Under the pieces are notes generated by a model. That model worked only from the letters and a program-made list of their open reading frames with translations. It was not told the origin of the DNA and did not search any database. 20,000 nucleotides of DNA, from assembly GCA_000442015.1 (NCBI GenBank), contig KE561184.1, positions 49,804-69,803 on the forward strand, read 5' to 3'. Shown one piece after another: positions 1-6,220 of this stretch (the stretch's first letter is position 1; each line of letters starts with the position of its first letter). A program made the position numbers and the translations under genes. Source of the stretch: Rozella allomycis CSF55 (Eukaryota).

Positions 1-186
1 CTATTATAACATCCAAGAAGTAAATACTTTTCCAATTGTAGAACGGAAACTATCCTTTTCAATTAGTAATCGGGCATTAGCCAATAAGTCTTCCCATTCA
101 TTAAATGTAGCTGGTAAACGAGGTAAACATTCATCGGGTAAAAATCCGGTCACTTCATTTATATCATACTCTTTCAATTCTTTCAT
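1..186 (-). CDS. BNA2: Indoleamine 2,3-dioxygenase family protein, first exon (gene runs off the window start)
   Basis: MKELKEYDINEVTGFLPDECLPRLPATFNEWEDL matches the IDO N-terminal pattern (Y.I....GFLP..PL..LP..F..WE); probable GTATTT donor after ...STIGK. Confidence 0.75.
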
Positions 187-237
187 GAAAAGAAAATTGT
201 GTAAATTTCAAAAATGAAAAAATTAAGTAATTAAGAA

Positions 238-454
238 TGTTAATTCGAGACCAACCTCCGACCTCGCATTTAACAGCTGATACTGATGAAAGCAGATCAG
301 ATATCCGATGAAGTGGAGATTTATATAAACTACTAGTGGAAACACAATCACTGATTCACTATCATGTTAACATGTTTATTGTGACCATTATTTAACCTCG
401 TTCCAAAATATGTGCCCTTTCATCAGTACCAAATTCGGAAAATTAGGAAATGCG
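238..454 (-). other. Unidentified structured element, candidate ncRNA or structured 5' leader
   Basis: Nested inverted repeats 278-292/417-431 (15 bp) and 265-271/448-454 (7 bp), plus hairpin 238-275. Mismatches become G-U pairs on the minus strand. Confidence 0.35.
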
Positions 455-544
455 TCTAAGCCACAGGGGGACATAAAAAGGCGAAAAAAATCCCAACCCC
501 TGCAAAATAACACGAAGGTAAGTACAATGCCCTTTTGTACGATT

Positions 545-615
545 CTTTCTGATGACCATACATAGACATCGGACTAGAGTATATGAATATCCTGATTAGT
601 CTTGTTGGCTGAAAC
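545..615 (+). ncRNA. snR78: Box C/D snoRNA, snR78 homologue (LSU Um2421 equivalent)
   Basis: Box C CTGATGA 549-555; guide TCGGACTAGAGT 569-580 antisense to LSU ACUCUAGUCCGA; D' ATGA 583-586 (+5 rule gives the U of GACU); box D CTGA 609-612. Confidence 0.85.
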
Positions 616-687
616 TTACATTTTATACAAACAACTTTAAGCAGTATCTAACTTTAGGTAATTACCATTACATTTTGCCTAAACTTT

Positions 688-761
688 TTTCATGATGAAA
701 AGAATTACCGACAGACTAAAACATGGTTGATATTATCGGCTGCAATTTTTTGCTCTGAAAC
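688..761 (+). ncRNA. snR77: Box C/D snoRNA, snR77 homologue (SSU Um578 equivalent)
   Basis: Box C ATGATGA 692-698; guide GAATTACCG 702-710 antisense to SSU CGGUAAUUC; D' CAGA 712-715 (+5 rule gives the U of GGU); box D CTGA 755-758. Confidence 0.8.
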
Positions 762-860
762 TATCTTTTCTAATTTTGTTTGTTGAACAAAACTAATGTT
801 AGGCAATTTTCATAAACTGTTTATCATTATATTAAGGTAAGAATAACTTCTAATATTTTA

Positions 861-938
861 CCTTCTTTATGATTAAACTGATGACGAGTCCGAAATCGTG
901 ACGATTTAGTTTAATTTGGCAAAATTCTATATGAGAGG
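861..938 (+). ncRNA. snR75: Box C/D snoRNA, snR75/U15 homologue (LSU Gm2288 equivalent)
   Basis: Box C ATGATTA 869-875; guide GATGACGAG 880-888 antisense to LSU CUCGUCAUC; D' CCGA 890-893; C' GTGACGA 898-904; D ATGA 931-934; terminal CCTT/GAGG pairing. Confidence 0.8.
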
Positions 939-1011
939 ATTTTCTATATATATTTAATTTTCTGAACTTTTCTAACTTTAGGTTTTAAATTAAATTTTCT
1001 TTATCTTTTTT

Positions 1012-1074
1012 GGTCAATGATGTTTTTTGACAAGCATATGGCTGATATCGTGATGCCAACTTTCAACTGAGACC
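1012..1074 (+). ncRNA. snR74: Box C/D snoRNA, snR74/U27 homologue (SSU Am28 equivalent)
   Basis: Terminal stem GGTC/GACC; box C ATGATGT 1017-1023; guide GACAAGCATATG 1029-1040 antisense to SSU CAUAUGCUUGUC; D' CTGA 1042-1045 (+5 rule gives A28); box D CTGA 1067-1070. Confidence 0.9.
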
Positions 1075-1118
1075 ATTTTGCACAATAATTGGTAAGTATT
1101 TTAATATGTTACTTCTTT

Positions 1119-1199
1119 GGGCACATGATGATTTATTTTCACGACGGTCTTCTTAGAGTTAGCCTTGCTGAAATCGCCTGAAGGCAATATCTGATGTCT
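1119..1199 (+). ncRNA. snR73: Box C/D snoRNA, snR73/U35 homologue (LSU Cm2959 equivalent)
   Basis: Stem GGGCA/TGTCT; box C ATGATGA 1125-1131; guide TCACGACGGTCT 1139-1150 antisense to LSU AGACCGUCGUGA; D'-like CTTA 1152-1155; box D CTGA 1191-1194. Confidence 0.88.
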
Positions 1200-1338
1200 T
1201 CTTTGAATTAATTTAATAGTTTTCTATTCTCACTCTAGGTTTTGTTATAATACATTCTGAATAAAAGTTCTTTTAGATCATTGAAATTCTTCTTTATATA
1301 CTTTGATTATTGTTTTTTTTTAAATATATCAACATTTT

Positions 1339-1745
1339 TTATTGATTAATTAAATTTTCTGAGTTGATCAAGGCTATGACCTGATTCTGCGACAAATTTC
1401 TTTTGAAAGCTTCATGAATATAGTACAAAATTCGTTTTCCACGAAGGTTCATGAAATCTTCCGTGTCAAGAAGAAACAAGTACAATGCCCGCGAGTTAGG
1501 AATTTCTGGGAAGAATGTAGACCAAATTCTTTTTGAAAAAGATTCGCAATCAAAAAATCTATGAAACACTGTTTCTTCTTTAACTTGACATTTTGGACAC
1601 ATAGCAGAAACATCACTAAACCTTGCGAATCGTTTATTAGTTAAATAAACACCATGGTAAATTTTCCATAATAACTGAGAGTAATACGATTATACCGTTC
1701 TCCTTGACAGCTGAAAAGTCGAGTTTTTTAAGTTGATAAAAAGTT
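1339..1745 (-). mobile_element. 3' remnant of an L1/Tx1-type LINE (zf-RVT region), copy 1
   Basis: Frame reads LLWKIYHGVYLTNKRF...CPKC...ETVFHRFFDC (CCHC zinc finger C-terminal to RT); in-frame stop upstream; A-rich tail; related copies at ~5530-5900 and ~6220-6390. Confidence 0.75.
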
Positions 1746-1840
1746 GATGCGTACCTCACTTTTTTTAAAAATATTCTGTCTTAAACAGAGTTTACTTTGA
1801 TTTGATGCTACAATAGAGAAATAACGAAATGCATTTTTAT

Positions 1841-3304
1841 TTAAGCGTTGGTTGAGCATTTAAAAATATTGAAACCATTCAACGCGGTACTAATTATCAC
1901 ATTGGGGAGTTGTCGGTGCCAGTGAAGCTCTTTAATATTATCTTGCCCTTGATGAATGAAGAGAAGCTGTGGAGGAATATCTTTCATAGAGTCATGAGCT
2001 ACCTCAATATCTTCTTCAAGGGAAAAGTCCCAAAGAGTCAATTGATCGTCGGCACCTGAAACGGCTAAAACTGTTTCATCAGTTGGATGCCATTCGATAG
2101 AGGTAATTGGACTCTTGTGCCATGAGAATGATGCAACGGGGTCGAAAGCATTCATAGAAAAATGTCTTAGGTCAAAAATCGAAAATTTTCCGTCGTCAAA
2201 TCCTGAAGCCAAAAGATAATCTTCTTTTGAATTCCATGAAATAACATTAACGTCAACAGAAGAAACCGGTGCAGTTAAGATGCATGCGTTTTTCGATCTA
2301 ACATCCCAAAGTTTTATTGTTCCATCAGTGGAACAAGACGCAAAGACATCATTTTCTTTTGGTGACCACTGTAAATCTTCAATAGACCCACCATGCCCTT
2401 TGAATTGATCCGGATTTGCTACTTGATCCGGTGAAACATTTGTCATACATATTACACCGTTGACATCTCCTGAGAGTAATCTTAGTTTATAATTAACATA
2501 TTGCAATACCTTCCAGGCACCCTTACACTCCAATCTAATGCAAATCCTTCTCCTTTGTGCCCTTTTATAACTCCAAAATTTGATGGTGTTTTATTCATAT
2601 TATCCTTGGTTGGATTTTCAAGGGATTCCATAGCCTCAGCAATATTGAATAATCTAACTTTTCCATCATCTGTCCAAGCAGAAACAATTCTGTGCTCATT
2701 CGTTGACTGAGGCATTGCCTATTCTAATTGTATGTCGTTATTACTCTAACACGATTTACGCCAGCATTTAATGATGCAGTTCTCACAGATAATATTGGCT
2801 CACCATTATTTTCTTCTTCATCATCATCTGATTCTTCGTCGCTGTCATCATCGTATTTTGTCTTGCACAGGTTTGATAACTTGGCGACATATAACTTATT
2901 GTCACATGCGTTCGAAGCCTGAGAGCCTGCTACAATAGTTGCACTCATGGGAAACTATTGAAATGAAAAATTAAAACTTACTAAAACTCTATTTTCTCCG
3001 AGTGAGTCACTGACTATATCAAAACTAAGGCAAGGCCATTCTGGTGTTAGCTCATGGTACATTTCGTATGCTGAAGAGTCAAAAGTTAATTCTTCTCCTT
3101 CTTCTAATTTATCTCCAGGTAAATAAACCTTTTATTTTTATACATATGTAATACTTTTGTCTCTTCATCGGCATTTTCAATATCCATGTTGGCCTCATGT
3201 ACTTCGTGATCAGATTCAACTATTTCTTCTATTTCACTGTCAGAAAATTCCTCTAAATCCATCTCATCAAAAGAGGGTGTATTATCGTCCTCTCTTCTCT
3301 TCAT
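1841..3304 (-). CDS. RRB1: Ribosome assembly WD40 protein RRB1/GRWD1 (multi-exon)
   Basis: Acidic N-terminus, then FDSSAYEMYH...WPCLSFD, GVNRVR, EGFALDW, SIEDLQWSP and IPPQLLFIHQGQ..IKELHWH motifs across consecutive exons. Confidence 0.93.
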
Positions 3305-3361
3305 AAATATTTTATGGTGGCTTGGCAGAAAACGATTTTATAATAAAAACAACGCAATGAG

Positions 3362-3852
3362 TCATTTATTATAATGTGTACATATTTCCTTGATTTTTGA
3401 ATCGTGTTTGACAATTAAATCTTTCAATTCAGAAATCTCTGCTTGCAATCTATTCATTTGACTTTCAAGAGTTTCAATTGATTCATCGACAAACTCTTTC
3501 CGATCTCGAACTTTACCCTTATTTCTTGTAGATTCTAAAACCACTACTAATCCAGCAACTGAAAATATTATAAACTCTCCAATAAAATTGGCTATTCAAC
3601 TCTTTACAAAAAATGTATTTTACCGCCAACATTTATTGCCCTTTCTTCATCAAGTGGCCTAATTCTTTCAGGTGCCTTATCATGCAATTTGCTTCTCATC
3701 CTTGCCTCCATTTGATGATAGGATTCGGCTACTTGAATGCATGCACTGCGGAATGCAGGTCTTCGTTTTGCTTCTGATTTCATGAAGCTAGCTATAGGTT
3801 TCGAAATAGTTCTTAGGAATAAATATCCCAACTTTACCAAAGGAATCGACAT
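3362..3852 (-). CDS. OPA3: OPA3-like protein (2 exons)
   Basis: KLGYLFLRTISKPIA and IRPLDEERAI..G motifs, followed by ANFIGE..IFSVAG after a short intron and a C-terminal coiled coil. Confidence 0.9.
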
Positions 3853-4111
3853 TAAAGATGCTAACGCAGAAAGCTAAACAAATAGAAATATTTAACTTTA
3901 CTTTGGAATATGTTCTTTACATGTTCTAATGACAAAAAATGATTACAATATTCACGACAGGACCGGACTCAAGTTCAAAAAAATTACAAAACGTGAACTG
4001 ATTTTGCAGTAAAAATAAATAATTTGATGGGAATGGACTAAATACTAACATAGTCTTTAAGGAAGAATTTGTTCAAAGTTTCGAAGCTTACCCTTGTTTG
4101 TAGATTATTTA

Positions 4112-5287
4112 ATGGATAAAAGAAAAGCTGAAATGCAAGTATCCATTGATGTTAAAAAGCCAAAAGTGGCCGAAACCTCTATAGTGAAAACCTTTAACTC
4201 GAAAGGCAAGCAGATACAAAGTATTCAAGTGAAACGAACGTCAGGCCTGAAATCGCCTATAATGTTATTAACGGGACACGAGTCTGATATTTTAACAACC
4301 AGATTTAGCCCATGTGGGAATTATTTAGCTTCTGGATCATTTGATAAAACAATATGTAAGCATTTTATCATTTCCAGAATAGTTTTGTGGAATGTTTATG
4401 GGGAATGTACAAATTTTAACGTTATGAGAGGACAAAACGGTGCTATTTTAGAATTAGACTGGTCTCCAAATTCAGAGTAATGCATCTGTCTAGACATTAA
4501 CAGGCGTATCTTTACGGCGTGTTCTGACAAGACTGTTGGTATTTACGACGTTATTGTGGGAAAAAATATCCGAAAGCTAAAAGGACATCAGAATATTATA
4601 AATTCTGTGAATTGTTTAAGACGTGAACCTCACTTGATTGTGTCTGGAAGCGACGACAAAATGATTAACGTAAGGGTTGTTGTTTCATATTTTCAGATAT
4701 GGGATCAAAGGCAAAAAGAACCGGTTAGTACTTTTACGCAAAGATTTCAAATCACTAGTGTTTCTTTTGGCCAAGTCGGAGATCTTGTGTTTGCGGGGTC
4801 TTTGGATAACGATATTACGGCTTGGGATATTCGTAATCAAAACATTTCATACAAGTTGAACGGTCATATTGATACAATTACTGGCCTAAGACTCAGCCCT
4901 GATGGTATGAATATTCTTTCCGCTTCCATGGATCATTCAGTTCGATTGTGGGATGTGAAGCCCTACGCCTCTGGAAATAGATGCCTAAAAATATTCGAAG
5001 GCGCACCTCATGGACACGAAAAAAATCTTATTAGACCTTCATGGTCTCATGATGCCCAAAGAGTTGCATGTGGAAGTGCCGATAGAACGGTTCTTGTTTG
5101 GGACGTTCCATCACGCAAAATTTTGTACAAACTTCCAGGTCATAAAGGATGCGTAAATGAAGTTGATTTTCATCCAGAAGAACCAATAAGTAACTCATCG
5201 TGTTTATACTAACTAGTCGCGTCATGTAGCGCAGATCGGCAAATATTCTTGGGAGAGATAGAACCATCTTATTCAGAATCGTACTAA
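4112..5287 (+). CDS. SNRNP40: U5 snRNP 40 kDa WD40 protein (SNRNP40/Spf38), multi-exon
   Basis: RTSGLKSPIMLLTGH, LWNVYGEC.N, GAPHGHEKNL, ILYKLPGHKGCVNEVDFHP and IFLGEI motifs. Confidence 0.93.
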
Positions 5288-5530
5288 TAAATTCGAAATA
5301 AATCTAACAACATTCCATTTTTATTGCCAATAAAAGCTTGTTTACTATTTAATATTTATCAATGTTAGGTTTAAAAAGTCAGGAAGAGGACCCTACGACC
5401 AAAAAAATCGACAATGTTTTAAAATATTTGCAGTGCATAGAAGAAAAGGACAATAACTCACTTTCGACTCTACAAAGAATGGGGCCCGACATATTGCATG
5501 AGAGTCAAATAGGTACAATAACTCTATACG

Positions 5531-5900
5531 ATGACCTGATTCTCCGACAAATGTCTCTTGAAGGCTTCATGAATATAGAATAAGATTCGTTTTCCACTAA
5601 ATTTCATGAAATCTTCCTTGTCGAAAAGAAACAAGTAAAGTGCCTGTGAATTTGGAATTACACGGAAAAATGTTAATTTTGAAAAAAAATTCCCAATCGA
5701 AAAACCTACGGAACATTGTTTCTTCTTTAACTTGGACATTTTGAACCCATTCACTAAACCTTGCGAATCTTTTATTAAATATTAGTTAAATATTTAAAAT
5801 ACTCCAGTCTCTATGATAAATTTTTCATAATAACTGAGAGTAATAAGAATCGGTCCCGCTCTCCCAAGTTCCTTCCCTGATTTTTCTTGAAGTTGATAAA
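5531..5900 (-). mobile_element. Degenerate L1/Tx1-type LINE 3' remnant, copy 2
   Basis: Nucleotide blocks shared with 1375-1740 (atgacctgatt, cttcatgaatatag, tttcttctttaactt, cactaaaccttgcgaatc, taactgagagtaata); frameshifted. Confidence 0.75.
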
Positions 5901-5917
5901 ACTACAAACATATTTAA

Positions 5918-5999
5918 TTTAAATGTTTATGCCAGTCTTCTCAAAATCATGGATGCAATCCTTTTTGCTAAAGTTAACATTAATGTGAGCCTGTGGTAT
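5918..5999 (-). repeat. 3' terminal fragment of the CRE-like retroelement also seen at 19761-20000
   Basis: ttatgccagtcttctcaaaatcatggatgcaatcctttttgctaa is near-identical to 19761-19805; encodes LAKRIASMILRRLA*. Confidence 0.7.
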
Positions 6000-6220
6000 G
6001 AATTATCATATATGCATTCTTTCTGCTATTTAAAGAACACAACACATCACATACTTAGAAGGTCGAAGAGGTTTCTGAGTCCTCCATCCATTCCGACGAT
6101 GTAAAGAGCCGTCATTTTCATCACACCCATTAACAGAAAAGGTAGCCCGCAGCGGAAATGGCCGACCGAATGGAACAAACAGTCCAACAAACATCGCAAA
6201 ACCTGTAAAGGCAAGTGATC

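What the first reader, a model, noticed from the sequence alone, without database searches (positions are those of the whole stretch)
500..1270. Hidden intronic box C/D snoRNA cluster: snR78-77-75-74-73 homologues in ancestral order
Seen: five C/D-box units in an ORF-free region, each with a 9-12-nt guide before a D' box, flanked by canonical splice signals. Known: the guides are antisense to conserved rRNA segments, and the +5 rule lands on the yeast sites Um2421, Um578, Gm2288, Am28 and Cm2959. These are the targets of the snR78-snR72 cluster, which is polycistronic in S. cerevisiae and intronic in many other fungi. Inference: the same gene order in what looks like a very early-diverging, compacted genome would place this cluster and its intron-per-snoRNA layout at the base of Fungi. 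Protein-centred annotation would miss it.
Basis: partly seen in the sequence, partly recalled or inferred. Interest (0 to 1): 0.85.

Follow-up and report, generated by a model that had tools for sequence, protein, structure and literature searches.

The report
Rozella intronic snoRNA cluster (snR78–73)
A non-coding gene of the early-branching fungal parasite Rozella carries five small RNAs that guide ribosomal RNA methylation, in the same order as a well-known yeast cluster, which extends a known arrangement towards the root of the fungi.

Summary
Window 545-1203 (+) carries five box C/D snoRNA units. Rfam finds SNORD35/snR73 above its gathering score, SNORD27/snR74 at E 8e-7, and snR78 and snR75/SNOR75 more weakly. 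The snR77-like unit has no specific Rfam hit and rests on its guide and position. All five guides (12, 9, 9, 12, 12 nt) lie before a D' box. On real eukaryotic rRNA fetched here they pair so that the fifth-nucleotide rule gives the sites tabulated for yeast as 25S-U2421, 18S-U578, 25S-G2288, 18S-A28 and 25S-C2959. The last needs a degenerate D' (CUUA).

The organism is Rozella allomycis (Rozellomycota): the window encodes one of its annotated proteins exactly.

Four units sit in 140-147 nt introns with GTAAG/GTAAT donors and CTAAC-type branch sites close before TAG, at near-constant spacing. Introns 1 and 2 abut with no exon between them. The snR74-like unit has no branch site or acceptor of its own. 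No RNA data were available.

The same five-gene, all-intronic cluster is already published for Rhizopus oryzae, and exon-less intron arrays and exonic snoRNAs are known in fungal clusters. This is a new member of a known kind. It pushes the cluster towards the fungal root and contradicts a 2018 claim of origin in Ascomycota.

The parts
440..517 (+). Putative first exon of the non-coding host gene. The 5' end is unknown and 440 is a placeholder. It ends ...ACGAAG before the donor.
   Evidence: Donor GTAAGT at 518. No ORF. The start is not determined and no RNA data exist.
518..657 (+). Intron 1 (140 nt): GTAAGT donor, CTAAC 648-652, TAG 655-657.
   Evidence: Motif scan. Geometry.
545..614 (+). 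Unit 1, snR78/U52-like box C/D snoRNA. C box 550-555 UGAUGA, guide 569-580, D' 583-586 AUGA, C' 593-598 UGAUUA, D box 609-612 CUGA.
   Evidence: Rfam snR78 28.2 bits, E 0.052. The 12-nt guide is exactly complementary to LSU rRNA in 29 of 109 loci, always at the same offset. The fifth base upstream of D' (A578) faces the U that ends the LR10 primer site, which is yeast U2421 (site table).
658..802 (+). Intron 2 (145 nt). It begins directly after intron 1's acceptor (0-nt exon). GTAATT donor, CTAAT 793-797, TAG 800-802.
   Evidence: GTAATG is used as a donor in the window's U5-40K gene. Juxtaposed introns are known in fungal snoRNA clusters (PMC3596301 section 8).
688..760 (+). Unit 2, snR77/SNORD65-like. 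C box 692-698 AUGAUGA, guide 702-710, D' 712-715 CAGA, D box 755-758 CUGA. The terminal stem is only 2 bp.
   Evidence: Rfam gives only weak generic hits (SNORD65 13.9 bits). The 9-nt guide is complementary to the SSU 'CGGTAATTC' in 20 of 49 loci, 19 of them 551-559 nt after the NS1 site. A707 is the fifth base upstream of D' and faces the first U after GG, which is yeast U578. The position between the 78-like and 75-like units fits.
803..836 (+). Internal exon, 34 nt.
   Evidence: Lies between acceptor 802 and donor 837.
837..981 (+). Intron 3 (145 nt): GTAAGA donor, CTAAC 972-976, TAG 979-981.
861..939 (+). Unit 3, snR75/U15/SNOR75-like. C box 869-875 AUGAUUA (degenerate), guide 880-888 (it contains a second UGAUGA, as in the family consensus), D' 890-893 CCGA, D box 931-934 AUGA. 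The terminal stem CCUUCU/GAGAGG forms in the MFE fold.
   Evidence: Rfam SNOR75 26.8 bits, E 0.0011; snR75 20.2 bits. The guide is complementary in 53 of 109 LSU loci, 46 of them at offset -120. C885 faces a G that lies 133 nt upstream of unit 1's target, and 2421-2288 = 133. Fold. The alternative D box CUGA 962-965 would lie 16 nt from the acceptor and does not fit the spacing of the other units.
982..1091 (+). Segment carrying unit 4. It starts with GTTTTA directly after intron 3's acceptor and ends at the donor of intron 5. It has no branch site or acceptor of its own, so it is either an exon or the 5' part of a composite intron 982-1238.
   Evidence: No AG and no CTRAY motif in 1075-1091. 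The C box lies 36 nt after 982, as in the true introns (32-35 nt).
1012..1074 (+). Unit 4, snR74/U27 (SNORD27)-like. C box 1017-1023 AUGAUGU, guide 1029-1040, D' 1042-1045 CUGA, C' 1052-1057 UGAUGC, D box 1067-1070 CUGA. Terminal stem UGGUC/GACCA.
   Evidence: Rfam SNORD27 46.1 bits, E 8.2e-7, with the guide and D' matching the consensus. T1037 faces SSU position 28, counted from the 5' end recognised in 37 of 49 loci. Stem.
1092..1238 (+). Intron 5 (147 nt): GTAAGT donor, CTCAC 1229-1233, TAG 1236-1238.
1120..1203 (+). Unit 5, snR73/U35 (SNORD35)-like. C box 1125-1131 AUGAUGA, guide 1139-1150, D' probably 1152-1155 CUUA (degenerate), D box 1191-1194 CUGA. Terminal stem GGGCA/UGUCU.
   Evidence: Rfam SNORD35 38.4 bits, above gathering 36. 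The 12-nt guide is complementary in 29 of 109 LSU loci (56 of 109 reach that far). G1147 faces the first C of GACC, which is yeast C2959, if D' starts at 1152.
1239..1290 (+). Putative last exon with AATAAA at 1260-1265. The 3' end is unknown.
   Evidence: No RNA evidence.

Best explanation
Window about 440-1290 (+) is a non-protein-coding snoRNA host gene of Rozella allomycis. One RNA polymerase II transcript carries five box C/D snoRNAs, orthologous to yeast snR78, snR77, snR75, snR74 and snR73 (human U52, SNORD65, U15, U27, U35).

Four of them lie one per intron, in introns of 140-147 nt. They are released from the excised, debranched lariats by exonucleolytic trimming up to the bound core proteins (Snu13, Nop56, Nop58, fibrillarin). 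The uniform spacing suggests splicing-coupled assembly: the C box starts 32-35 nt after the donor, and the D box ends 38-41 nt before the branch A.

Introns 1 and 2 abut with no exon between them. They must therefore be removed stepwise, or the first donor must choose between two acceptors.

The snR74-like unit has lost its own acceptor. It is released either from a composite intron (982-1238) or from the exon or unspliced precursor.

Through their D' guides the mature snoRNPs direct 2'-O-methylation of 18S A28 and U578 and of 25S G2288, U2421 and C2959 (yeast numbering).

Shown here: the motifs, the family similarity, the pairing to real eukaryotic rRNA, and the organism. Inferred: transcription, splicing order, processing and methylation.
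For: - Family similarity comes from Rfam.
- All 29 + strand matches in 400-1400 are C/D families.
- Guides pair with fetched LSU and SSU rRNA at fixed, homologous offsets.
- The distance between the targets of units 1 and 3 is 133 nt in 46 loci, equal to 2421-2288.
- The predicted sites equal the tabulated yeast sites of the five snoRNAs.
- All five orthologues in N. crassa are D'-guided and intronic (Table 1).
- Four complete donor/branch/acceptor sets with near-constant geometry.
- The signals match the window's own coding introns: GTAAGG, GTAATG and GTAACT donors, and TTAAC or CTAAC close before the YAG acceptor.
- No ORF longer than 35 aa on either strand, and none above 17 aa on the sense strand, in the spliced models.
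- TGATGA occurs 4 times in 771 nt, against 32 times in the other 39,229 nt of both strands.
- Terminal stems form for units 3, 4 and 5.
- The DNA sequence is confirmed by independent contigs: X1 spans 1-1342 with 1 difference and X3 spans 471-1407 with 0.
- Published precedent exists for the same cluster in the same layout.
Against: - No expression, splicing or methylation evidence of any kind.
- Only one unit reaches an Rfam gathering score.
- Unit 2 has no family-specific hit and only a 2-bp terminal stem. Its 9-nt guide also fits a second SSU site, 'GGTAATTCT', about 130 nt after NS1 in 13 of 49 loci.
- 9-nt complementarity to conserved rRNA is common by chance.
- Unit 3 has non-consensus C (UGAUUA) and D (AUGA) boxes and an ambiguous D box.
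- Unit 5's D' is CUUA.
- Units 1 and 2 lack convincing terminal stems.
- Fold energies do not differ from shuffles (z -1.26 to +0.46). This is usual for C/D snoRNAs but gives no support.
- Rozella's own rRNA was not available. Unit 1's 12-nt match needs '...TAGTCCGA', which is present in only 29 of 109 eukaryotic LSU loci.
Confidence: 0.85

Rival explanations
1. The five snoRNAs are real, but the transcript is an unspliced polycistron, as in S. cerevisiae. It would be cut between units by an RNase III-type endonuclease and trimmed by exonucleases. The splice-like motifs would be relics or chance.
For: Unit 4 has no acceptor of its own, and introns 1 and 2 have no exon between them. S. cerevisiae and close relatives express the same cluster without splicing (PMC3596301). 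No spliced RNA was seen, but no RNA data exist at all.
Against: There are four complete donor, branch and acceptor sets with uniform spacing to the snoRNAs. They match the signals of the window's coding introns. In all non-Saccharomyces fungi surveyed in PMC3596301 the cluster is mostly or wholly intronic.
Confidence: 0.07
2. The cluster is partly decayed. Units 4 and 5 (and probably 1) are functional snoRNAs, but unit 2 and/or unit 3 are pseudogenes, or guide something other than U578 and G2288.
For: Unit 2 has no specific Rfam hit, a 2-bp stem, a 9-nt guide and an alternative SSU match in 13 of 49 loci. Unit 3 has degenerate C and D boxes and scores below gathering. 9-mers matching conserved rRNA are frequent by chance.
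Against: Both 9-mers sit exactly between a C box and a D'-like box. Their fifth-nucleotide positions land on the known sites expected from the cluster order. Unit 3's C-box G-to-U and D-box C-to-A changes would keep the Watson-Crick pair of stem II; this is my inference from recalled K-turn geometry. Both units keep the same intron geometry as the others.
Confidence: 0.12
3. The motif pattern is a chance product of AT-rich intergenic DNA and there are no snoRNAs.
For: The region is AT-rich (31% GC). Short motifs such as CTGA abound.
Against: SNORD35 scores above gathering and SNORD27 has E 8e-7. Three 12-nt antisense matches to rRNA fall in 771 nt, against none of 12 nt or more in 18.7 kb at the same threshold. 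The order matches a published cluster.
Confidence: 0.01

Closest known systems
Fungal snoRNA gene cluster I (snR78-snR77-snR76-snR75-snR74-snR73-snR72): polycistronic in S. cerevisiae, intronic in most other fungi (PMC3596301; passages and section 8 read)
   Same: The snoRNA families, strand and 5'-3' order are the same. The host is non-coding with mostly one snoRNA per intron. As published for Rhizopus oryzae, snR76 and snR72 are absent and the rest are intronic.
   Different: The lineage (Rozellomycota) is not in that survey. The cluster is very compact (about 0.8 kb, introns 140-147 nt). One unit (snR74-like) has no acceptor of its own. Introns 1 and 2 abut without an exon, which that paper reported for Hemi-, Eu- and Archiascomycetes.
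Juxtaposed 'complex introns' after exon loss in fungal snoRNA clusters, spliced stepwise 5' to 3' or by alternative acceptor choice (PMC3596301 section 8)
   Same: Intron 1's acceptor (TAG 655-657) is followed directly by intron 2's donor (GTAATT 658).
   Different: Splicing order is untested here. This is a single junction, in a lineage where it has not been described.
Neurospora crassa snoRNA clusters in UHG-like non-coding host genes, including an exon-encoded snoRNA, CD6 (PMC2780460; abstract, Table 1 and passages read)
   Same: Orthologues CD5, CD24, CD7, CD21 and CD31 are D'-guided and intronic. An exonic snoRNA sits beside intronic ones in one cluster. The host genes have only short ORFs.
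   Different: N. crassa snR78 is fused with snR72 into a double guide (CD5). In the rRNA parts I held, the Rozella unit shows no recognisable second guide.
Mammalian snoRNA host genes (UHG/SNHG1, GAS5)
   Same: They are non-coding spliced hosts with one box C/D snoRNA per intron, each at a constrained distance from the branch point (recalled: Hirose and Steitz 2001).
   Different: The snoRNA sets differ. In human U15, U27, U35, U52 and SNORD65 are in separate hosts (recalled, not tested here).

Membership tests
Box C/D snoRNA (general) | C box (RUGAUGA) near the 5' end and D box (CUGA) near the 3' end, on one strand, 50-100 nt apart | tested here: met
   There is a C-box motif for every unit. 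It is the consensus UGAUGA in units 1, 2 and 5, UGAUGU in unit 4 and UGAUUA in unit 3. The D box is CUGA in units 1, 2, 4 and 5 and AUGA in unit 3.
Box C/D snoRNA (general) | Terminal stem bringing the C and D boxes together | tested here: inconclusive
   Stems of 5-6 bp for units 3, 4 and 5, but only 2 bp for units 1 and 2. Short or absent stems are common in intronic snoRNAs (recalled).
Box C/D snoRNA (general) | Guide of 9 nt or more, complementary to rRNA and ending next to D or D', with the target facing the fifth nucleotide upstream of the box | tested here: met
   plus counting on the sequence. This holds for all five on heterologous eukaryotic rRNA. Unit 5 needs a degenerate D' (CUUA). 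The organism's own rRNA was not available.
SNORD35 / snR73 (RF00211) | Score at or above the Rfam gathering threshold | tested here: met
   38.4 bits against 36.
SNORD27 / snR74 (RF00086) | Score at or above the Rfam gathering threshold | tested here: not met
   46.1 bits against 52 (E 8.2e-7). The guide and D' match the consensus and the target is A28. It works like snR74, and formal family membership falls just short of threshold.
snR78 (RF01176) | Score at or above the Rfam gathering threshold | tested here: not met
   28.2 bits against 48. The guide core ACUAGAGU is shared with the consensus, and the 12-nt guide pairs at the U2421 site.
snR75 (RF01185) / plant SNOR75 (RF02539) | Score at or above the Rfam gathering threshold | tested here: not met
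   20.2 bits against 40, and 26.8 against 50. The GAUGACGAGUCCGA element is identical to the SNOR75 consensus.
snR77 / SNORD65 / snoR77Y (clan CL00057) | Significant match to a family model | tested here: not met
   The best clan hit is SNORD65 at 13.9 bits against 41, E 0.56. The assignment rests on the guide (20 of 49 SSU loci), the +5 site U578 and the position in the cluster.
Fungal snoRNA cluster I (snR78-72) | Members on the same strand, in the order 78-77-(76)-75-74-73-(72), within about 1-1.5 kb | tested here: met
   The units at 545, 688, 861, 1012 and 1120 are all on the + strand. Published order. No snR76 or snR72 homologue was found in 190-1900.
Fungal snoRNA cluster I (snR78-72) | Co-transcription as one host RNA, with splicing | not testable with these tools
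   No RNA holder was listed. The one RNA run that was laid had no contigs on 1-6000.

The most novel reading that the evidence does not exclude
Cluster I, with the order 78-77-75-74-73 in a spliced non-coding host, was already present in the last common ancestor of Rozellomycota and all other fungi. That would make it one of the oldest conserved non-coding gene orders known in the kingdom.

Three consequences would follow:
- The published scenario that the cluster was assembled at the root of Ascomycota would be wrong.
- snR76 and snR72 would be later insertions into the cluster, not repeated losses.
- Exon-less juxtaposed introns (stepwise splicing) would be either equally old or a recurrent outcome of this architecture.
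Probability: 0.55. Interest if true: 0.45.

Novelty: new member of a known kind. Interest (0 to 1): 0.32.

Why it matters
It adds a data point from one of the deepest fungal branches for a snoRNA cluster that is used as a model of intron loss and gain.

Together with the published Rhizopus and Dikarya clusters, it argues that the gene order and the intronic expression mode predate the split of Rozellomycota from other fungi. A 2018 fungal snoRNA survey, whose main text names neither Rozella nor Cryptomycota, placed the cluster's assembly at the root of Ascomycota.

It also shows that Rozella keeps these five guides. According to that survey its sister group, Microsporidia, has lost almost all snoRNAs.

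The practical value is annotation. These are five rRNA-modification guides and a non-coding host gene that protein-based gene calling would not report.

Tried and rejected
- Whole genome and own rRNA: no genome is held for this window, so the guides could not be tested on Rozella's own rRNA.
- RNA evidence: no RNA holder was listed for 300-1500. The single RNA run carrying the species label laid no contigs on 1-6000. This says nothing about expression.
- Fetching SSU rRNA: the NS1 primer found nothing in viral contigs. Searching the metagenome records behind the LSU loci for SSU was not possible because those records are not held. SSU was then obtained from eukaryotic rDNA fragments in prokaryote assemblies.
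- Second (D-box) guides: in the rRNA parts I held (SSU about 1-740, LSU about 1700-3100) no conserved complementarity of 9 nt or more lies directly upstream of any D box. The rest of the rRNA is untested.
- A sixth unit: TGATGA at 284 with CTGA at 351-354 has no Rfam support. The best hit is archaeal sR2 at 11.9 bits, E 2.9, and there is no rRNA match at guide position. I rejected it.
- snR76 or snR72 homologues next to the cluster: none in 190-530 or 1200-1900, and none at gathering level in the whole window.
- Thermodynamic support: the fold energies of the five units do not differ from shuffles.
- Earlier scan notes: nothing by place, words or sequence.
- Literature: searches for 'Rozella' with 'snoRNA' gave 9 papers. 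In the two I opened for passages, and in the titles and abstract openings of the other seven, none describes this cluster. Supplements, including Table S3 and the figures of PMC3596301, were not seen and could hold more taxa.
Full report
**What is there**

Window 500-1270 has no long ORF. No ORF of 80 aa or more overlaps it, and its longest ATG-ORF is 23 aa. It is 31% G+C.

A whole-window Rfam scan at gathering thresholds gives one hit, SNORD35 at 1120-1203 (+), 38.4 bits against a threshold of 36. A permissive scan of 400-1400 lists 31 matches with E<=10. The 29 on the + strand are all box C/D families, and the 2 on the - strand are unrelated. The matches fall into five blocks:

| Unit | Coordinates | Best Rfam match | Bits (gathering) | E-value |
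|---|---|---|---|---|
| 1 | 545-614 | snR78 | 28.2 (48) | 0.052 |
| 2 | 688-760 | generic C/D hits; SNORD65 (snR77 clan) | 13.9 (41) | 5.6; 0.56 in the narrow scan |
| 3 | 861-939 / 864-967 | SNOR75 / snR75 | 26.8 (50) / 20.2 (40) | 0.0011 and 0.014 in the narrow scan |
| 4 | 1012-1074 | SNORD27 | 46.1 (52) | 8.2e-7 |
| 5 | 1120-1203 | SNORD35 | 38.4 (36) | 5.1e-7 |

The narrow scans are. The hexamer TGATGA occurs 4 times in these 771 nt, against 32 times in the other 39,229 nt of both strands.

**Boxes and guides**

These were read.

| Unit | C box | Guide | D' | C' | D box |
|---|---|---|---|---|---|
| 1 | 550-555 UGAUGA | 569-580 | 583-586 AUGA | 593-598 UGAUUA | 609-612 CUGA |
| 2 | 692-698 AUGAUGA | 702-710 | 712-715 CAGA | not assigned | 755-758 CUGA |
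| 3 | 869-875 AUGAUUA | 880-888 | 890-893 CCGA | not assigned | 931-934 AUGA |
| 4 | 1017-1023 AUGAUGU | 1029-1040 | 1042-1045 CUGA | 1052-1057 UGAUGC | 1067-1070 CUGA |
| 5 | 1125-1131 AUGAUGA | 1139-1150 | 1152-1155 CUUA | not assigned | 1191-1194 CUGA |

- Unit 3's guide contains a second UGAUGA. The SNOR75 and snR75 consensus sequences do the same.
- Terminal stems of 5-6 bp exist for units 3, 4 and 5. Units 1 and 2 have only 2 bp.
- Fold energies are no better than shuffles (z -1.26 to +0.46). That is normal for this RNA class and gives no support.

**Do the guides pair with rRNA?**

- LSU: the LR10 site gave 109 metagenome loci.
- SSU: the NS1 site gave nothing in viral contigs. It gave 49 loci of eukaryotic rDNA lying in prokaryote assemblies.

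Exact Watson-Crick complements were found as follows:

| Unit | Guide length | Loci with exact complement | Position |
|---|---|---|---|
| 1 | 12 nt | 29 of 109 LSU (10-nt core: 31 of 109) | always 14 nt into the LR10 site |
| 3 | 9 nt | 53 of 109 LSU (96 reach 150 nt or more upstream) | 46 at offset -120 |
| 5 | 12 nt | 29 of 109 LSU (56 reach 600 nt or more downstream) | offsets about 515-587 |
| 4 | 12 nt | 49 of 49 SSU | trivial: the target lies inside the NS1 primer |
| 2 | 9 nt | 20 of 49 SSU (24 reach 600 nt or more downstream) | 19 at offsets 551-559 |

One-base extensions of the guides of units 2, 3 and 4 match 0 loci.

**The fifth-nucleotide rule**

I counted on the sequence.

- Unit 1: A578 faces the U that ends the LR10 site.
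- Unit 3: C885 faces a G 133 nt upstream of that U.
- Unit 5: G1147 faces the first C of GACC.
- Unit 4: T1037 faces SSU position 28, counted from the 5' end recognised in 37 of 49 loci.
- Unit 2: A707 faces the first U after GG in CGGUAAUUC, at SSU position about 574-582 in these loci.

The yeast table in PMC8307265 lists Am 18S-28 snR74, Um 18S-578 snR77, Gm 25S-2288 snR75, Um 25S-2421 snR78 and Cm 25S-2959 snR73. The difference 2421-2288 is 133, as observed. Mapping these contexts to the yeast numbers otherwise rests on my recall of the yeast sequences and of the LR10 coordinates.

**Caveats on the pairing**

- Unit 5 needs the degenerate D' CUUA. It aligns to the CAGA of the SNORD35 consensus.
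- Unit 2's guide, shifted by one base, also fits 'GGTAATTCT' about 130 nt after NS1 in 13 of 49 loci.
- 9-mers complementary to conserved rRNA are common by chance: 39-51 antisense and 43-44 sense runs in the other 18.7 kb.
- At that threshold no run of 12 nt or more occurs outside the cluster, against three inside it. At a looser threshold one 13-nt run occurs at 2612-2624.

Units 1, 4 and 5 therefore stand on their own. Units 2 and 3 stand on position, the +5 rule and the cluster order.

**Organism**

The ORF at 4484-5212 is 95% identical to a WD-repeat (U5 snRNP 40 kDa) protein of Rozella allomycis CSF55. The next hits are about 60% identical, from Glomeromycotina and Mucoromycota. Mapping the exons shows that 390 of its 391 residues are encoded exactly; the remaining residue falls at an exon junction. 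Rozella is in Rozellomycota. [quoted passage not shown]

The introns of that gene are 27, 27, 30 and 88 nt. They have GTAAGG, GTAATG and GTAACT donors and a TTAAC or CTAAC close before the YAG acceptor.

**Host-gene anatomy**

Donors lie at 518 (GTAAGT), 658 (GTAATT), 837 (GTAAGA) and 1092 (GTAAGT). The branch and acceptor signals are:

- CTAAC 648-652, then TAG ending at 657
- CTAAT 793-797, then TAG ending at 802
- CTAAC 972-976, then TAG ending at 981
- CTCAC 1229-1233, then TAG ending at 1238

AATAAA follows at 1260-1265.

This gives introns of 140, 145, 145 and 147 nt. Each holds one snoRNA, whose C box starts 32-35 nt after the donor. The D box ends 38-41 nt before the branch A and 44-47 nt before the acceptor. 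This regularity argues for real, splicing-coupled processing. It also favours the AUGA at 931-934 as unit 3's D box over the CUGA at 962-965, which would lie 16 nt from the acceptor.

Two departures from 'canonical signals around each unit':

1. Intron 1's acceptor is followed directly by intron 2's donor, so the exon between them is 0 nt.
2. Unit 4 lies in 982-1091. This segment starts with GTTTTA right after intron 3's acceptor, and the C box is 36 nt in, like the others. But it has no AG and no branch motif before the next donor at 1092.

Unit 4 is therefore either exonic or part of a composite intron 982-1238.

Spliced models have no ORF over 35 aa on either strand, and none over 17 aa on the sense strand.

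**Expression**

No RNA holder was listed. The one RNA run with the species label laid nothing on 1-6000. This is not evidence either way. DNA contigs from three runs confirm the sequence: X1 covers 1-1342 with 1 difference and X3 covers 471-1407 with none.

**What is known**

- PMC3596301 (passages and section 8 read) defines 'cluster I' as snR78-77-76-75-74-73-72.
- It finds the cluster in nearly all fungi analysed.
- It states that in Euascomycetes, Basidiomycota and Rhizopus oryzae the snoRNAs are all intronic.
- It states that the snR76 intron is missing in Archiascomycetes and R. oryzae, and that the snR72 intron is missing from the cluster in most species. The Rozella arrangement is therefore the arrangement already published for Rhizopus.
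- The same paper describes juxtaposed introns without intervening exons. [quoted passage not shown]
- PMC2780460 reports an exon-encoded snoRNA inside a N. crassa cluster. Its Table 1 lists the five orthologues as D'-guided and intronic.
- In contrast, PMC5824354 (passages read) places the formation of the 77-76-75-74-73 cluster at the root of Ascomycota, with the families scattered before that. Its main text mentions neither Rozella nor Cryptomycota.
- A search for 'Rozella' with 'snoRNA' returned 9 papers. None describes this locus, judged by titles, the openings of the abstracts, and passages of two of them. Supplements and figures were not seen.

**Verdict**

It is overstated in two respects. 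Splice signals are complete for 4 of 5 units. And the architecture, including the exact five-member composition, is already in print for another non-Dikarya fungus.

What the window adds is a Rozellomycota member. By parsimony with the published taxa, this moves the cluster and its intronic mode to the common ancestor of Rozella and other fungi. It also makes later insertion of snR76 and snR72 more economical than repeated loss. That inference rests on one locus. It remains untested in chytrids, Blastocladiomycota and outgroups, which I could not search.

Noticed in passing
window 1376-1587 and 5531-5734: A dispersed repeat lies just downstream of the cluster. There are two direct copies at 84% identity, about 4.15 kb apart. 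Contig word-depth there is 10-60 times that of the flanks, and many contigs join the two copies. This suggests a multi-copy element. An 87-aa ORF on the - strand at 1339-1602 overlaps it.
   Followed up: partly
window 4478-4504, 4670-4696, 5189-5218: The U5 snRNP 40 kDa gene has extremely short introns of 27, 27 and 30 nt. The branch-like TTAAC or CTAAC lies only 2-3 nt before the acceptor. The snoRNA-bearing introns are about five times longer.
   Followed up: partly
window 284-354 (+): A TGATGA at 284 and a CTGA at 351-354 lie upstream of the cluster on the same strand. The only Rfam hit is archaeal sR2 at 11.9 bits, E 2.9, and no rRNA complement sits at guide position. Probably chance.
   Followed up: yes
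window 701-709 versus SSU loci L110-L158: Unit 2's guide, shifted by one base, is also complementary to 'GGTAATTCT' about 130 nt after the NS1 site in 13 of 49 SSU loci. This could be a second target or a competitor for the U578 guide.
   Followed up: partly
window 728-742: Inside unit 2 a second element (GAUAUUAUCGGCUG) resembles the guide-plus-D' element. cmscan aligned it to the AAUUACCGaCUGA of the A. fumigatus family Afu_300. It may be an internal duplication or a remnant of a different box arrangement.
   Followed up: no
window 417-468, 944, 1200-1240 (run X4): One DNA run carries a second sequence variant. It has substitutions at 417, 428, 445, 467, 468, 1200, 1201, 1205, 1216 and 1240, and a TA insertion after 944. 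None of the listed changes falls in a box or guide, but 13 further differences were not shown, so no conservation claim can be made.
   Followed up: no
loci L110-L158 (genome contigs): An exact 19-nt eukaryotic 18S primer site occurs in at least 49 contigs of bacterial and archaeal assemblies, both isolates and MAGs. Many of them also carry the 5' end of the SSU just upstream. This points to eukaryotic rDNA contamination of prokaryote assemblies.
   Followed up: no
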